Shown one piece after another: positions 7,605 through 12,339 of a stretch of DNA of 64,000 nt (positions are counted from its first letter, which is position 1; each line of letters opens with the position of its first letter). The stretch comes from a phage, in the NCBI GenBank assembly GCA_012178725.1, contig GCA_012178725.1_3030.1, one strand, 5' to 3'. The notes beneath the pieces are model-generated. The model was not told the DNA's origin and ran no database searches. It saw only the letters and a list, made by a program, of their open reading frames with translations. The position numbers and the translations under genes are program-made.

Positions 7605-7791
7605 AATAATCTATTGGTAAGAGAGTACGATATATTTCAAACTTTGGACCTTTTTCATAGGCATCAAAAGTTTCTGTGAATTTATTATAAGCATATGCAT
7701 CTATAAATTCAATCATGATTTGTGATACAGAAGTAGAAACATCTCCACCTTCTTTTTGAGCCACGACAATTGTTTCTAAGTAAGCTTTCAT
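7603..7791 (-). CDS. hypothetical small protein between gene 30 and alt
   Basis: 62 aa ORF overlapping ligase stop. Confidence 0.4.
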   Translation of the reverse strand: MKAYLETIVVAQKEGGDVSTSVSQIMIEFIDAYAYNKFTETFDAYEKGPKFEIYRTLLPIDY

Positions 7792-9251
7792 AAACCAGTT
7801 ACCTCATGAAAATCACCAAATACATCTTCGAATGTATTAGCTTTAGTTTTATCTTCACGTAAACGAATCGCAATCGGAAGAAATAATTTAACGTAATCAG
7901 TGCGGCCATCAGATTTTAACCAACCGTTGCATTCGCACTCTAGAATTTTTCCAATATAATAATTTTGGTTTTCCATAATGCGAGTACGGTCAAGTTCATG
8001 CGATTTTACACCGGCTTTATCTTTTAAGCCTGAACCAGCATTTACTTTAATTTTTCCACACTCTGATTCAAGAATAAATCCACCCGCTTTAGTAGGGTCT
8101 TTACGGTGAGGATAAATTCCTACAATTTTTAAATCAACATCAATTACTTCTTTAAATTTATAGAGATTTTTTGAACGAGCATTTTCCCATAATCCATCGA
8201 TATTTTTGAGAATAATACCTTCAAGACCTTGGTCAATATATTTTTTATAAATTACCTTAGCTTCATTTAGGTTATTTACTACCTGGTTTTCAATTAAAAT
8301 TACTTTATCATATCCTGATGTCATTTGTTCTAGTTTAGAAAAACGTACATCATATTTTAAACGAAACGCTGGAAGACCGTATATTTCTACCAACGGGACA
8401 TAATCCCAGACCTGAAACTTCATACATTGAGCTTCTTTTTCAGAAATGGTTCCTTTTAAGGATTTATTGGCGATTCCATTAGAAGTAGTACGAGATTCCG
8501 CTACTTCGGCGAATTCTTTAGCTTTACTAATTTCAGGATAAGCATCAAAAAGAAAATCTAGGCCTTCTGGTTCCTTTTTAACTTGCTCATGGTATACCAA
8601 TTCGCCATCAATTAACACACCTTCTGGATGAATCTGGCGGGCTTCAGCAGTCATTTTGATTAACTCTTCTTTAAGAAGATCTAATCCTAGATATTCATTA
8701 CCAGCTCGTGATAAAAGACGAACATCATCTAATTCATCGCCTCGGACTTCAGCAAAACACCGAGCTCCATCAGCTTTTAACTGCGCAAAAGCTGGAAACT
8801 TGATATTCTTACTAATGCCTTTTTCATCATAAGAACTTGCCAGCATTTGAGGTTGTTCAGGAATTAAACCTGGCCAAACTTTGTTTGCAATAGATACTGA
8901 AGCACCGCATTCAAGGTCTCGCATCATAACTCGACGCAAAACTTCAACATCATCCTTTTTACCATCGGTGATATATCCAGTTAATTCCTCAATTGCTGCA
9001 TTGCCAGTTAATTTCCGAGTAGCTAACGTGAATTCAATGAAGTCAAGCATATCGGTAATAGTCAGCATTCCAAAACTCTGGGTAGCAATACCAGGTTTAG
9101 GCCATTTCTTGATATAATACTGCAACCCACGAGAATAAGTTAAACGATATACTCGTTTAAGCAATTCATTATCTTTATTCTTTTCAAGAATTGCTTGCTT
9201 CTGCTTAGTTGAACCAATAGATGCTATTTCGTTCAGAATTTTAAGAATCAT
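7788..9251 (-). CDS. 30: ATP-dependent DNA ligase gp30
   Basis: 487 aa; KADGAR adenylation motif; recognised as T4 DNA ligase. Confidence 0.95.
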   Translation of the reverse strand: MILKILNEIASIGSTKQKQAILEKNKDNELLKRVYRLTYSRGLQYYIKKWPKPGIATQSFGMLTITDMLDFIEFTLATRKLTGNAAIEELTGYITDGKKDDVEVLRRVMMRDLECGASVSIANKVWPGLIPEQPQMLASSYDEKGISKNIKFPAFAQLKADGARCFAEVRGDELDDVRLLSRAGNEYLGLDLLKEELIKMTAEARQIHPEGVLIDGELVYHEQVKKEPEGLDFLFDAYPEISKAKEFAEVAESRTTSNGIANKSLKGTISEKEAQCMKFQVWDYVPLVEIYGLPAFRLKYDVRFSKLEQMTSGYDKVILIENQVVNNLNEAKVIYKKYIDQGLEGIILKNIDGLWENARSKNLYKFKEVIDVDLKIVGIYPHRKDPTKAGGFILESECGKIKVNAGSGLKDKAGVKSHELDRTRIMENQNYYIGKILECECNGWLKSDGRTDYVKLFLPIAIRLREDKTKANTFEDVFGDFHEVTGL

Positions 9252-9517
9252 TGTTCATCCTTTAGAGTTTGGTTTACAGCTCTATTATAAATCAATTCAT
9301 CATTAAGCTCAGTCAAAGACCTGTGGTACGTGGTTCTAACTTTATTTCCTTGCATCCAGTGCTTGACGTAAATGAAACCTTGTTCTACGCATTTTTTAAA
9401 AATTCGTTCGTCTTTTTGAGCACGGAATTCTGGATTGCATCTAAAAAATTGATTTACGTGACCGTAATCACGTGTAGTATTACCTTCATTTTCATAAATA
9501 GTATGAACAACAAACAT
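9248..9517 (-). CDS. hypothetical protein (30.1-like position)
   Basis: 89 aa ORF overlapping neighbours by 4 nt. Confidence 0.5.
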   Translation of the reverse strand: MFVVHTIYENEGNTTRDYGHVNQFFRCNPEFRAQKDERIFKKCVEQGFIYVKHWMQGNKVRTTYHRSLTELNDELIYNRAVNQTLKDEQ

Positions 9518-10359
9518 TAGAATGCTCCTTGAAAAATATTATCACCACTAGTAGGTCTATTATACAAATACTCTATGCCACCAGGTTTAATATAGTTCCA
9601 TGTATGAAATGGATGCACATGATATGGATGTGTATAATATGGATGGTATGGATTTAATCCAGGAGTTCTCCAGGTAGTATTCCAACGAAAAGAATCGTTT
9701 TTAATCATCTTTTCAATTGCATCTTTTACAGCTTTTTCACTATCAAAACTTTCTTTATTTTCCTTCAATGGAAAAAGCTTATTCTCTACATCATTCCATG
9801 TATAAACTCGCTGAGCAGTTTTTGGAATACTGTCACGTTCCCCTCGAGCCATCCAATACACAGGAACACGTAATATTTCACTCGCATGATCGCAGTGATG
9901 AGCGAGATCGTCAATATAACAAATTACGTTATATTTCTCTTTTGCCTTTTTGAACAACTCTTCTTTTGAAGAATCATGACCACACATCATTACTTCTGAG
10001 AAGGCACCAGGAAAAAGAGCATTCAAATTAAATTGACGATTCAGCAGAGCGTCAATAGAATCACCCAGCGCTGTAACAGCTACAAAATTATAATCTTCTT
10101 TTAACTTGTTAATTACACACAGAGCATCTTTATATGGAGACAAGTAACGAATAAAATCTGATCGATTGTATTTTTCAATTAACTTAACACCAAGTTCTTC
10201 ATCACAATTAAAAAGTTTACCTGGAGAAATAAATTTCTCATCTTGGATCATTTTTAAAATATGTTCCAACGGAAGATTATATTTCTGAGCAAAATAAGGA
10301 AGGCCTGATTGCCAGCTTAAACATACTCCATCAATATCAGTTAAAATAGTAGGCTTCAT
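9517..10359 (-). CDS. HAD-superfamily hydrolase-like protein with His/Tyr-rich C-terminal tail
   Basis: N-terminal DIDGV (HAD motif I), later ICYIDD; C-terminus PYHPYYTHPYHVHPFHTW. Confidence 0.55.
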   Translation of the reverse strand: MKPTILTDIDGVCLSWQSGLPYFAQKYNLPLEHILKMIQDEKFISPGKLFNCDEELGVKLIEKYNRSDFIRYLSPYKDALCVINKLKEDYNFVAVTALGDSIDALLNRQFNLNALFPGAFSEVMMCGHDSSKEELFKKAKEKYNVICYIDDLAHHCDHASEILRVPVYWMARGERDSIPKTAQRVYTWNDVENKLFPLKENKESFDSEKAVKDAIEKMIKNDSFRWNTTWRTPGLNPYHPYYTHPYHVHPFHTWNYIKPGGIEYLYNRPTSGDNIFQGAF

Positions 10360-10820
10360 AGAGAGTCTCTTAATAGGTTTAACACATCAATAAATTCAGC
10401 TTCGGTTAGTATTGTATCATCTTTTGTTAGACCACTAGCCATGCTGTGCTTCAAAACTTTTCCTTTCGAGGCTTGTAATGCATCACGAAAGCCCTTGTTT
10501 TGAATCGCTGCTTCAAAATATGCATTTGTGTATAATTCTTTCCACGCTGGGGAGTATCTTGAAAACGGAACTCCAAGCCAGAAGAGGGTCCCACGGTCCT
10601 GAGCTCTAGCATAAGACCTTCCAGCTTGTTGGGCGGCAAGCCCGGATAACCCAAATATACGACGTTGTTGTTCAACATTTTTCACCTTGCATCCTTGGAG
10701 GAATCCTTCAAGACCTCCAAATTGAATATCATCCATAACGAAAGGCCATTGGGCGAAATTACTTAATGCACATGATGGCCACCTAAAATTGCTTCTAATC
10801 TCTAGCTCAGACATTTTCAA
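10356..10820 (-). CDS. NADAR-domain protein (YbiA-like)
   Basis: 154 aa; LSNFAQWP ... EGFLQGCK matches NADAR core FSNFAxWP ... EHYFQAQK. Confidence 0.65.
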   Translation of the reverse strand: MKMSELEIRSNFRWPSCALSNFAQWPFVMDDIQFGGLEGFLQGCKVKNVEQQRRIFGLSGLAAQQAGRSYARAQDRGTLFWLGVPFSRYSPAWKELYTNAYFEAAIQNKGFRDALQASKGKVLKHSMASGLTKDDTILTEAEFIDVLNLLRDSL

Positions 10821-11013
10821 TGCTTATAATTTCAACATCAGCCCAATGACCATAGTTTGGTAGACGAAATTCAACTGGCCAGTCACTGCCTTTTTCTAAT
10901 ATAATAGACTTAACTTGTGGTTCTTCGTGTTCATCAGTATATGGATTTTTATCTGTTACTTTATATGTGACCTTAATGTACTGAATTCCAAAAATCTTAT
11001 TAATTATATTCAT
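10807..11013 (-). CDS. hypothetical small protein
   Basis: 68 aa ORF in tightly packed early gene array. Confidence 0.45.
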   Translation of the reverse strand: MNIINKIFGIQYIKVTYKVTDKNPYTDEHEEPQVKSIILEKGSDWPVEFRLPNYGHWADVEIISIENV

Positions 11014-11207
11014 ACTAATTCCTTTAATCCGTAAATAGGAGATAATTCATCACCCATACGAAGGTCTTCATTTCCATCTACCCAAGAAACAATATAAGCC
11101 TCTTTTATTTGAATACCACTCCATTTAAATGGAGGTAGAACCTTAGAAATTAATCCAGGTATACCAACTCCCTTTAATTCAACAGTTTGACCTAAAAAGA
11201 ATTTCAT
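11010..11207 (-). CDS. hypothetical small protein
   Basis: 65 aa ORF, overlaps neighbours by 1-4 nt. Confidence 0.45.
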   Translation of the reverse strand: MKFFLGQTVELKGVGIPGLISKVLPPFKWSGIQIKEAYIVSWVDGNEDLRMGDELSPIYGLKELV

Positions 11208-11494
11208 TAGAACCTCATCTGAAAACCGTGCGATTTAACATTACCGCTGCCAATATCAGAAATGTTAATTTCACGCGCAATTGAAGGGTCAATGTCAATT
11301 TCGCGATTGAGTTTAGTGATAGCTAAAGTATCGCGCCCATTTACAGTACGGAACTCTAAAGGACATACTACATTAACGTAGTTTTTAATCGATTCGCTGG
11401 TAGGTTGCAAATGAGCAGGAAGGTCTTTAGGCGCCTTAGAGAAAACCACTTCACAGAAGTTTTTACGAGTATCAAAATAAGTAGTCATAAACAT
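11207..11494 (-). CDS. hypothetical protein
   Basis: 95 aa ORF with GAGGAAAA SD 7 nt upstream. Confidence 0.5.
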   Translation of the reverse strand: MFMTTYFDTRKNFCEVVFSKAPKDLPAHLQPTSESIKNYVNVVCPLEFRTVNGRDTLAITKLNREIDIDPSIAREINISDIGSGNVKSHGFQMRF

Positions 11495-11511
11495 AGTATT
11501 TTCCTCAGCAA

Positions 11512-11525
11512 GGGGCCGAAGCCCC
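11512..11525 (-). other. intergenic tetraloop hairpin
   Basis: GGGGC-CGAA-GCCCC (UUCG on minus) between two minus-strand ORFs, just upstream of SD. Confidence 0.45.
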
Positions 11526-11535
11526 TCATTTTATT

Positions 11536-11913
11536 TTAAATATCAAATTCGTTAAGAACTACATCAAAGATTGCTTCAAGATGCTCAGGTTTAGCTCTAT
11601 TACTCAGAATATGACGAATCCAAGTTTTAACCAAAAGCTTGCGATTAGCACCATTCCAGCAAGGATGAGTCCCTAAATCACGTTGACGAAAATCATCATC
11701 CAGAGCGATTTTGAAGTTTGAACCTTCCATTGTGATTGAAACCGTGATTCCATTTTCAAATCGCATATAAACGTAGTTAGGAGTCATATACTGTTCAATT
11801 TCGCATACTGATCCATTTTGATGTTTCCAAAGGCAGATAGTATCAATAGAACCTGCAATACCATTAGAAACATATTTACGTTCAAAGTTGATGTAGTTCA
11901 TTTTATTCTCCAA
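11536..11913 (-). CDS. hypothetical protein
   Basis: 125 aa ORF. Confidence 0.5.
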   Translation of the reverse strand: MENKMNYINFERKYVSNGIAGSIDTICLWKHQNGSVCEIEQYMTPNYVYMRFENGITVSITMEGSNFKIALDDDFRQRDLGTHPCWNGANRKLLVKTWIRHILSNRAKPEHLEAIFDVVLNEFDI

Positions 11914-11970
11914 GATGTTTAATTGCGGTACAGGTATATAATATCATATCCTGTACCAAAGTAAACTATT

Positions 11971-12339
11971 TTATGCAACTTTAATCCAATTATCTAAATT
12001 TAATTCACCTTTGGCTTTCATTTTTTCAATCAAGAGGTCAGCGGTAATACGACCATTTTGATACCACGTAACATCTTCAGAGTAACCAGTTTCTTTATCT
12101 TCATAAGTCTCACAACGAATTTTACCAATAATCAAAGTTTTCAATTCGTATGTATCTCCAGTAAAAAAGTTAGTTAACATTATTTTCCAAGAGAAATCAT
12201 CAGAAGGACCTTCAGGAGTCATGCAACCTACAAATTCAAATTGTTCTTTGTATAAGTGCCACTGAAGTTCTTTAGTTTCGATAGCTTTATAGCCGTCGTG
12301 ATCTTTACCTTTGATGTATGAGTTAAGATTGATTTTCAT
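11971..12339 (-). CDS. hypothetical protein
   Basis: 122 aa ORF with own early promoter. Confidence 0.5.
   Translation of the reverse strand: MKINLNSYIKGKDHDGYKAIETKELQWHLYKEQFEFVGCMTPEGPSDDFSWKIMLTNFFTGDTYELKTLIIGKIRCETYEDKETGYSEDVTWYQNGRITADLLIEKMKAKGELNLDNWIKVA

What the first reader, a model, noticed from the sequence alone, without database searches (positions are those of the whole stretch)
9517..10359. HAD-like hydrolase with a His/Tyr/Pro-rich C-terminal tail
The N-terminus has the DxDGV nucleophile motif of HAD phosphatases, and the C-terminus ends in an unusual low-complexity stretch, PYHPYYTHPYHVHPFHTW. Such a tail could bind metal or mediate an interaction. The gene sits directly upstream of the NADAR gene with overlapping stop/start, suggesting co-expression.
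Basis: seen in the sequence. Interest (0 to 1): 0.4.

Follow-up and report, generated by a model that had tools for sequence, protein, structure and literature searches.

The report
T4 gp30.2: nucleotidase-like phosphatase, floppy tail
This is the T4-type phage gene 30.2: a real, expressed, still uncharacterised phosphatase of the HAD superfamily, closest to 5'(3')-deoxyribonucleotidases, with a fast-evolving disordered proline/aromatic-rich tail whose histidine richness is a local repeat variant and not a conserved metal site.

The parts
9517..10359 (-). Gene 30.2 ORF, 280 aa plus stop (T4 ortholog: 278 aa, UniProt P32275)
9775..10359 (-). HAD phosphatase core with helical cap, residues 1-195
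10324..10338 (-). HAD motif I, DIDGV (D8 nucleophile, D10 acid/base)
   Evidence: D8 and D10 invariant in A1, A2 and A3
10096..10320 (-). All-helical insert between strand 1 and strand 2 (about residues 14-88), containing the C1-type cap. It includes W16 (10312-10314), which aligns with the Phe at +8 from the nucleophile in mouse cdN
   Evidence: DSSP of the model; alignment to 2jao; W16 invariant or nearly so
10072..10074 (-). HAD motif II, T96, at the end of strand 91-96
   Evidence: at least 90% conserved; strand
9964..9966 (-). HAD motif III, K132
   Evidence: invariant in 121 distant relatives
9907..9912 (-). HAD motif IV, D150-D151 (Mg2+ ligands by analogy)
   Evidence: at least 90% conserved
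9700..9771 (-). Tail helix, residues 197-220
   Evidence: helix with pLDDT 65-86; also present in the second model
9658..9672 (-). Tail motif WRTPG (residues 230-234)
   Evidence: W230 at least 90% conserved in type-A tails; motif present in RB69
9598..9654 (-). H/P/Y-rich low-complexity repeat NPYHPYYTHPYHVHPFHTW (residues 236-254), over a 15-nt tandem DNA repeat (9604-9645). It is an indel hot spot
9550..9582 (-). Tail motif GGIEYLYNRPT (residues 260-270), the best conserved tail element across genera
   Evidence: G-x-E-Y-L..QPT in 17 homolog clusters with 45-95% core identity; short helix 263-266 in both models
9520..9546 (-). C-terminal GDNIFQGAF. The last codons contain AAGGAG (9525-9530), the Shine-Dalgarno sequence for 30.1
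10356..10359 (-). ATGA: stop of 30.3 overlapping start of 30.2
10356..10820 (-). Upstream gene 30.3 = AdfN, a NADAR DNA ADP-ribosylglycohydrolase (the annotated T4 start corresponds to the ATG at 10814)
   Evidence: Pfam PF08010 E 3.9e-69; PMC11825919
9248..9517 (-). Downstream gene 30.1 (DUF3045), TAATG overlap with 30.2
   Evidence: Pfam PF11243 E 2.9e-64
7788..9251 (-). Gene 30, ATP-dependent DNA ligase, the most constant neighbour of the HAD gene

Best explanation
gp30.2 is an active, Mg2+-dependent HAD-superfamily phosphomonoesterase of a divergent lineage related to the 5'(3')-deoxyribonucleotidase (NT5C) family. The lineage is almost entirely confined to phages.

By analogy with HAD chemistry (inferred), Asp8 attacks the substrate phosphate to form an aspartyl-phosphate. 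Asp10 acts as acid/base. Thr96 and Lys132 hold the phosphate, and Asp150/Asp151 hold Mg2+. The helical cap closes over a small substrate. The cap carries the invariant W16 at the position of the base-stacking Phe of cdN/mdN. The substrate is most likely a (deoxy)nucleoside monophosphate or a closely related small phosphoester.

The gene is made early, in one translationally coupled unit with AdfN, gp30.1 and DNA ligase. The C-terminal 85 residues are not catalytic. They form one helix followed by a Pro/aromatic-rich intrinsically disordered tail. The tail evolves about ten times faster than the core, expands and contracts by repeat slippage, and has been lost or replaced repeatedly. It carries short linear motifs (WRTPG, GIEYLxNxPT) that probably dock the enzyme to a partner. 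The His richness of this allele is a by-product of HPY/NPY repeat variation.

For: Motifs: D8, D10, K132 and R108 are invariant, and W16, N111 and D151 nearly invariant, in 121 relatives down to 21% identity. T96 and D150 are at least 90% conserved in the closer sets.

Family link: the A3 profile hits 3bwv (putative 5'(3')-deoxyribonucleotidase) at E 6.5e-7 over the full length. The A2 profile hits mouse cdN at E 0.014. 46 of 121 relatives match Pfam NT5C, and 5 of 10 sampled pass its gathering score. hhalign of the gp30.2 group against those relatives gives 99.95%, E 9e-38. Structural neighbours among viral models are phage '5' nucleotidases'.

Context: distant relatives sit next to MazG, GMP reductase/IMPDH and HIT genes.

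Expression: the T4 protein is classed 'early RNA / middle protein', the same class as ligase and gp30.1.

Tail: pLDDT 31-58 in two independent models. Only in-frame indels are seen, giving total lengths of 276-310 aa. dN/dS is 0.27 against 0.026 for the core. 39 of 99 clusters have almost no tail and 53 have more than 60 aa. The motifs are conserved across genera.
Confidence: 0.6

Rival explanations
1. gp30.2 is a nucleic-acid end-healing 3'-phosphatase, like the HAD domain of T4 polynucleotide kinase/phosphatase. It would prepare nicks for the DNA ligase encoded just downstream.
For: DNA ligase lies downstream on the same strand within 1.33 kb in 65 of 79 related viral loci, often 2-6 nt after the HAD gene. 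In three more loci the ligase lies just upstream. There is a weak PHROG hit to polynucleotide kinase (E 0.0036). One distant relative touches Pfam HAD_PNKP (E 0.0032). PD-(D/E)XK nuclease genes are adjacent in two distant loci.
Against: The model has a helical cap of roughly 60-75 residues over the active site. By established knowledge of HAD enzymes, such a cap favours small substrates, whereas the PNKP phosphatase is essentially capless. The family link goes to NT5C and not to PNKP. T4 already encodes PseT. Synteny among T4-like phages is partly inherited and not independently selected.
Confidence: 0.1
2. gp30.2 is the unidentified T-even-specific factor that AdfN (gp30.3) needs in vivo to counter DarT1. 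It could recruit AdfN through its tail, or it could process an ADP-ribose-derived phosphoester.
For: The ATGA overlap with adfN implies coupled translation. PMC11825919 reports that AdfN-T4 removes ADP-ribose from DNA in vitro. The same paper reports that it cannot neutralise DarT1 in uninfected cells or rescue T5 or Bas25, yet it rescues RB69. The authors propose a need for an additional T-even protein. RB69 encodes gp30.2. Other phage NADARs need no helper.
Against: The HAD gene occurs without a detectable NADAR in 48 of 79 loci, so its primary role does not depend on NADAR. AdfN is active alone in vitro. The proteome time course puts gp30.3 in a different protein class (late) from gp30.2 (middle). 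There is no direct evidence of any interaction.
Confidence: 0.08
3. The His/Tyr/Pro stretch is a dedicated metal-binding element (Zn, Ni or Cu).
For: This allele has 5 His in 18 residues, including HVH and HPxH spacings. Related Klebsiella-phage tails also contain an HPGN..H element.
Against: His count varies from 2 to 5 among 11 near-identical Tequatrovirus alleles, and T4 itself has NPYNPYHPYQTHPFQTW. His is not enriched in homolog tails (1.7% against 2.4% in cores). 39 of 99 homolog clusters lack the tail. What is conserved is the Pro/aromatic pattern.
Confidence: 0.07
4. The tail is an annotation or reading-frame artefact, and the true protein ends near residue 195.
For: Many homologs are only 196-220 aa long.
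Against: The frame stays open through 276-310 codons in all 11 alleles examined, and every indel is in frame, including a 32-codon duplication. dN/dS is 0.27. The motifs are conserved at protein level across genera. The window-type tail is found in 500 phage records.
Confidence: 0.01

Closest known systems
5'(3')-deoxyribonucleotidase family (Pfam NT5C, PF06941; human cdN/mdN; S. epidermidis 3bwv)
   Same: HAD core with a helical cap inserted after motif I. DxDGV with an aromatic residue at +8 (W16 against Phe in cdN). Motif IV at a strand end. Similar size, about 190 aa. Profile-level homology: 3bwv at E 6.5e-7, and hhalign 99.95% to relatives that pass PF06941.
   Different: The window protein itself does not reach PF06941 even at E<=1. 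It has its own signature (WQSGLPYF, LNRQFNLNALFPGAF, invariant R108/N111/R172). It carries an 85-residue tail absent from the cdN/mdN and 3bwv chains, which are 168-207 residues long. Its substrate is untested.
Phage-encoded '5' nucleotidases' (for example the Delftia phage PhiW-14 nucleotidase, and annotated nucleotidases of Erwinia and Vibrio phages)
   Same: Same fold, as structural neighbours in BFVD. They are phage proteins of similar size.
   Different: Only 12-18% identity. Those annotations are mostly predictions too. None has the Straboviridae tail.
T4 polynucleotide kinase/phosphatase (PseT), phosphatase domain
   Same: HAD phosphatase encoded by the same phage, with a DxDGT-type nucleophile motif. 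It acts in a pathway that ends with a ligase.
   Different: gp30.2 has a large helical cap and no kinase domain. Similarity to PNK models is marginal (E 0.0036).
Disordered C-terminal tails with short linear motifs on enzymes
   Same: Low predicted order, Pro/aromatic-rich composition, fast evolution, repeat-driven length changes, and islands of conserved motif.
   Different: No partner is known, and the motifs match no motif class that I could test. They occur nowhere else in the 64-kb window.

Membership tests
HAD superfamily phosphatases | Motif I DxDx(T/V) at the end of strand 1, with Asp at +2 (phosphatase/mutase type) | tested here: met
   DIDGV at residues 8-12, directly after strand 4-7. 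D8 and D10 are invariant in 99, 39 and 121-sequence alignments.
HAD superfamily phosphatases | Motif II Ser/Thr at the end of strand 2 | tested here: met
   T96 ends strand 91-96 and is at least 90% conserved.
HAD superfamily phosphatases | Motif III conserved Lys/Arg | tested here: met
   K132 is invariant in all alignments.
HAD superfamily phosphatases | Motif IV acidic pair (DD / DxxxD) at a strand end | tested here: met
   D150-D151 end strand 145-150. Both are at least 90% conserved, and D151 is nearly invariant in distant relatives.
HAD superfamily phosphatases | Rossmannoid HAD fold | tested here: met
HAD superfamily phosphatases | Mg2+-dependent phosphoryl transfer through an aspartyl-phosphate | not testable with these tools
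   Needs enzymology.
NT5C 5'(3')-deoxyribonucleotidases (PF06941) | The protein scores above the PF06941 gathering threshold | tested here: not met
   No Pfam family at E<=1 for the window protein or its core.
NT5C 5'(3')-deoxyribonucleotidases (PF06941) | Demonstrable homology to bona fide members | tested here: met
   5 of 10 sampled relatives found with the gp30.2 profile pass PF06941 (26-40 bits against a cutoff of 24.8). hhalign of A2 against A6 gives 99.95%, E 9e-38. The A3 profile hits 3bwv at E 6.5e-7.
NT5C 5'(3')-deoxyribonucleotidases (PF06941) | Aromatic residue at +8 from the nucleophile that stacks on the base (Phe18 in cdN, Phe49 in mdN; residue roles recalled from the literature) | tested here: met
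   W16 aligns with that Phe of mouse cdN in HMMER alignments and is invariant or nearly so. Its role is inferred.
NT5C 5'(3')-deoxyribonucleotidases (PF06941) | dNMP phosphatase activity | not testable with these tools
   No published assay was found.
PNKP-type polynucleotide 3'-phosphatase | Open, essentially capless active site that accepts polynucleotide ends | tested here: not met
   The model has a helical insert between strand 1 and strand 2, residues about 14-88.
His-rich metal-binding tail | Conservation of the His ligands among orthologs | tested here: not met
   His count is 2-5 among 11 close alleles. His is not enriched in homolog tails.

The most novel reading that the evidence does not exclude
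The disordered tail is a docking device that places a nucleotidase-like phosphatase in a T-even-specific complex (AdfN/NADAR, DNA ligase, or the replication/dNTP-synthesis machinery). On this reading gp30.2 is the missing T-even factor that AdfN-T4 needs to work in vivo against DarT1. The repeat-driven tail variation would then reflect an arms race or co-evolution with that partner.
Probability: 0.08. Interest if true: 0.6.

Novelty: new member of a known kind. Interest (0 to 1): 0.3.

Why it matters
gp30.2 is present in at least 1439 sequenced T4-type phages. It is almost always encoded next to DNA ligase, yet it has no assigned function even in the model phage T4. Placing it as a divergent NT5C-like phosphatase gives a concrete substrate panel to test: 5'/3' dNMPs, including hm-dCMP and dUMP. 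It also suggests a possible unrecognised step in phage nucleotide-pool control. The tail shows how a phage enzyme gains, varies and loses a disordered appendage by repeat slippage. The gene's coupling to adfN gives a cheap test of an open question raised in PMC11825919, namely why AdfN-T4 works only in T-even infections. None of this overturns current understanding. The HAD call is already present in some GenBank annotations.

Tried and rejected
- Direct family scans of the window protein gave nothing useful. Pfam returned no hit. NCBIfam returned only a spurious 15.8-bit thiamine diphosphokinase match. PADLOC returned nothing. PHROGs returned only phrog_420, 'unknown function'.
- A single-sequence PDB search was insignificant (E 1.4-1.5).
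- A second AlphaFold run on a type-A-tail-only alignment (A4) was meant to see whether the GIEYL motif docks on the core. It gave a worse core and the same disordered tail.
- A tail-only profile search of 5.8 billion proteins returned only two tail fragments of gp30.2 itself. It gives no evidence that the tail is a module shared with other proteins, but a short profile has low power.
- A regex search for the tail motifs in all six frames of the window found them only in this ORF.
- The afdb50 fold library was unavailable.
- The genome-contig scan with A3 failed because no stretch was conserved enough. With A2 it found one locus, which is a T4-like phage contig inside a bacterial assembly.
- Literature searches for gp30.2, T4 30.2 with HAD, and NT5C with phage found nothing. 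The T4 genome review PMC150520 is not held.
- The promoter/terminator scan showed no enrichment (15 found against 11.3 expected), and Rfam gave no hit in 9000-11600. No hidden RNA or regulatory element explains the tail.
- A NADAR-anchored locus search with the single protein returned only near-identical phages. It could not test whether T4-type NADARs always travel with the HAD gene.
- I considered and rejected that the C-terminal domain of Yersinia phage P0067 is a fused 30.1 (E 1.9).

Full report
**What is there**

Window 9517-10359 holds an ATG-started ORF of 280 codons on the minus strand. The region is 97% identical at DNA level to many Tequatrovirus (T4-like) genomes. In T4 records the ortholog is gene 30.2, 278 aa, annotated 'hypothetical protein' or 'unknown function'.

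The neighbours on the same strand, in 5' to 3' order, are:
- 30.3 at 10356-10820 (Pfam Phage_30_3, E 3.9e-69);
- 30.2 at 9517-10359;
- 30.1 at 9248-9517 (DUF3045, E 2.9e-64);
- gene 30, DNA ligase, at 7788-9251.

All three junctions overlap: ATGA, TAATG and ATGA. The four genes therefore form one translationally coupled string. No sigma-70-like promoter enrichment, terminator or Rfam family lies inside the unit.

**The observation**

DIDGV is at residues 8-12 and PYHPYYTHPYHVHPFHTW at residues 237-254. The stretch is the most H/P/Y-rich 18-mer in any ORF segment of at least 100 aa in the window. It has 13 of 18 such residues; the runner-up has 8, and 200 shuffles gave a maximum of 11. It sits on a 15-nt tandem DNA repeat. 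It is not the C-terminus, because 26 further residues follow it.

**The core is a HAD phosphatase**

The topology is strand 4-7, then an all-helical insert, then strand 91-96. This is a C1-capped HAD.

The four catalytic motifs are conserved:
- D8 and D10 are invariant.
- T96 is at least 90% conserved.
- K132 is invariant.
- D150/D151 are at least 90% conserved. The pattern holds in 121 relatives down to about 21% identity, where D8, D10, R108 and K132 are invariant and V12, W16, N111 and D151 nearly so.

Asp at +2 from the nucleophile marks phosphatases and mutases among HADs; this rests on established knowledge of the superfamily. I conclude that the enzyme is catalytically competent.

**Which HAD**

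The window protein hits no Pfam or NCBIfam HAD model. It belongs to PHROG 420, 'unknown function'. An exhaustive profile search found 1377 clusters (at 50% identity) with E<=1e-3, mostly proteins of 190-220 aa.

Several results link the family to NT5C, the 5'(3')-deoxyribonucleotidase family:
- 46 of 121 relatives match Pfam NT5C (PF06941), more than match any other family.
- 5 of 10 sampled relatives pass its gathering score over the full length.
- A profile-profile comparison of the T4-like group against those NT5C-positive relatives gives 99.95% probability, E 9e-38.
- The broad family profile hits the solved structure 3bwv (putative 5'(3')-deoxyribonucleotidase) at E 6.5e-7 end to end.
- The narrow profile's only PDB hit below E 0.1 is mouse cdN, at E 0.014.

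In those alignments the invariant W16 falls on the Phe that lies 8 residues after the nucleophile in cdN. From the literature as I recall it, that Phe stacks on the nucleotide base.

Viral structural neighbours beyond the orthologs are mostly annotated '5' nucleotidase'. Some GenBank and JGI records already call orthologs 'HAD-like hydrolase', 'phosphatase' or '5' nucleotidase ... cytosolic type'.

**The tail**

Across homolog clusters the C-terminal region is the variable part:
- 39 of 99 clusters have at most 35 residues after W188, and 53 have more than 60.
- Long tails are Pro-rich (13.8% against 4.4% in cores) but not His-rich (1.7% against 2.4%).
- At least three tail types recur. One carries W(R/K)xPG ... 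GTGIEYLxxQPT (17 clusters, core identity 45-95%). One ends in LRAYY (13 clusters). One ends in LNKVxANDS (8 clusters).

Both AlphaFold models give a helix at about 197-220, then pLDDT 31-58 to the end, with only a one-turn helix on IEYL.

I compared eleven Tequatrovirus alleles:
- The core is about 99% identical, whereas the tail is 60-96% identical over 500 phage records.
- All length differences are in frame, giving totals of 276-310 aa, including a 32-codon duplication in Shigella phage CT01.
- The repeat ranges from NPYNHPYQTHPFQTW (phage HZ_ZJUN4) to NPYHPYYTHPYNPYYTHPYHMNPFHTW, with 2-5 His. T4 itself, with NPYNPYHPYQTHPFQTW, also has only 2.
- The downstream motif has two alleles, GGIEYLYNRPT and GDAGYFNRLT.

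Pooled Nei-Gojobori estimates give dN/dS 0.026 for the core and 0.27 for the tail (only 11 sequences, not tree-corrected). The tail is therefore translated and under selection, but much more weakly than the core.

The invariant last codons (CAA GGA GCA TTC) contain AAGGAG seven bases before the 30.1 start. Conservation of the extreme C-terminus may therefore be an RBS constraint. RB69 gp30.2 keeps WRTPG but lacks GIEYL.

A conserved metal site is not supported. A disordered docking tail is the most economical reading, but no partner is known. The motifs occur nowhere else in the window, and a tail-only profile search found only gp30.2 fragments.

**Context and expression**

I examined 79 related viral loci:
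- DNA ligase lies downstream on the same strand within 1.33 kb in 65, often 2-6 nt after the HAD gene, and lies just upstream in three more.
- A NADAR gene is present in 31, directly upstream in 21.
- 30.1 is present in 24.

The core occurs in 1439 phage records. Every record sampled except one 1.4-kb fragment is a 114-253 kb genome of T4-type phages of Escherichia, Klebsiella, Aeromonas, Acinetobacter, Vibrio and others.

Among 185,579 species genomes, the family signature was found once. That hit is a 178-kb contig with the phage arrangement NADAR-x-HAD-ligase.

In distant marine-type loci that lack a detectable ligase, the neighbours include MazG, a GMP reductase/IMPDH, a HIT protein and PD-(D/E)XK nucleases. 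This fits nucleotide or DNA metabolism.

In the T4 transcriptome/proteome time course (PMC9697503 supplements), 30.2 is 'early RNA / middle protein', like 30 and 30.1. By contrast, 30.3 is 'early RNA / late protein'.

**Relation to AdfN**

PMC11825919 shows that gp30.3 (AdfN) is a NADAR that removes DarT1 ADP-ribose from DNA. AdfN-T4 fails outside T-even infections, and the authors suggest it needs an additional T-even protein. Other phage NADARs need none.

gp30.2 is translationally coupled to adfN and is present in RB69, which AdfN-T4 can rescue. That makes it a candidate helper.

Against this, the HAD gene exists without NADAR in most loci, and AdfN is active alone in vitro. I rate this idea as a low-probability but cheaply testable one.

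**Verdict**

This is a real gene, and the HAD call is correct. It is a divergent NT5C-like phosphatase of unknown substrate. The tail is real, disordered, repeat-variable and motif-bearing. The metal-binding idea is not supported, and the neighbour order needed correction.

The HAD nature is already in public annotations. The tail anatomy and the stronger linkage to ligase than to NADAR are, as far as I could find, undescribed. Interest is modest, at 0.3.

Noticed in passing
window 9525-9530 (minus strand): The Shine-Dalgarno sequence of gene 30.1 (AAGGAG) lies inside the last codons of 30.2 (CAA GGA GCA TTC = QGAF). This gives a second reason for the invariance of the gp30.2 C-terminus among Tequatrovirus alleles.
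   Followed up: partly
P0013 (302 aa, 1378-bp Logan contig): A single ORF fuses a 30.2-type HAD core to a 30.1/DUF3045 domain (40% identical to window gp30.1, E 9e-18). It is either a natural fusion hinting at a 30.2-30.1 functional link, or a lost stop or assembly error.
   Followed up: partly
L081 216-1148 (Shigella phage CT01, OK018184.1): The gp30.2 allele is 310 aa and carries an in-frame 32-residue tandem duplication that repeats the HPY repeat plus the GGIEYLYNRP motif.
   Followed up: partly
L086 (NZ_JBHSCL010000010.1, 178,077-bp contig of a Flagellimonas marina assembly): The contig carries NADAR, the HAD gene (49% identity) and a T4-type DNA ligase (39% identity) in the phage order. 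It looks like a complete T4-like phage genome, from contamination or co-culture, inside a bacterial assembly.
   Followed up: partly
L072 4859-5398, L073 5433-5996, L078 5417-5983, L079 261-722: In marine-type distant loci, the HAD homolog is always preceded by a conserved protein of about 150-190 aa (..EGGTKTQRNL..FFVKKLMP..) with no Pfam match.
   Followed up: no
P0067/P0069 (Yersinia phages phiR1-RT/TG1), P0081, P0102, P0141, P0153, P0224: Some family members replace the disordered tail with larger extra regions. P0067/P0069 have a C-terminal extension of about 110 aa that is not 30.1-like. P0081 has a Cys-rich end. P0153 (591 aa) and P0224 (660 aa) have the HAD domain at the C-terminus. 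None of the extra regions has a Pfam match.
   Followed up: partly
window 10814-10820: The mechanical ORF for 30.3/AdfN starts at a TTG (10820). T4 annotation uses the ATG two codons downstream (152 aa).
   Followed up: no
window 11511-11526: A perfect GC-rich palindrome (AGGGGCCGAAGCCCCT) lies in the short gap between the 30.7 and 30.6 ORFs. It is the only terminator-like hairpin in 9000-12000. Its role on the minus (coding) strand was not examined.
   Followed up: no
P0002 (220 aa): This cluster representative is 99% identical to gp30.2 up to residue about 207 and then switches to unrelated sequence (..RSEEHTSELQSQN). It is probably a chimeric assembly.
   Followed up: no
L087 8268-8681 (RB69 30.3) against window 10356-10820: RB69 30.3 is annotated at 137 aa and does not overlap 30.2 (42-nt gap). 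This is consistent with the frameshift-truncated AdfN reported in PMC11825919.
   Followed up: no
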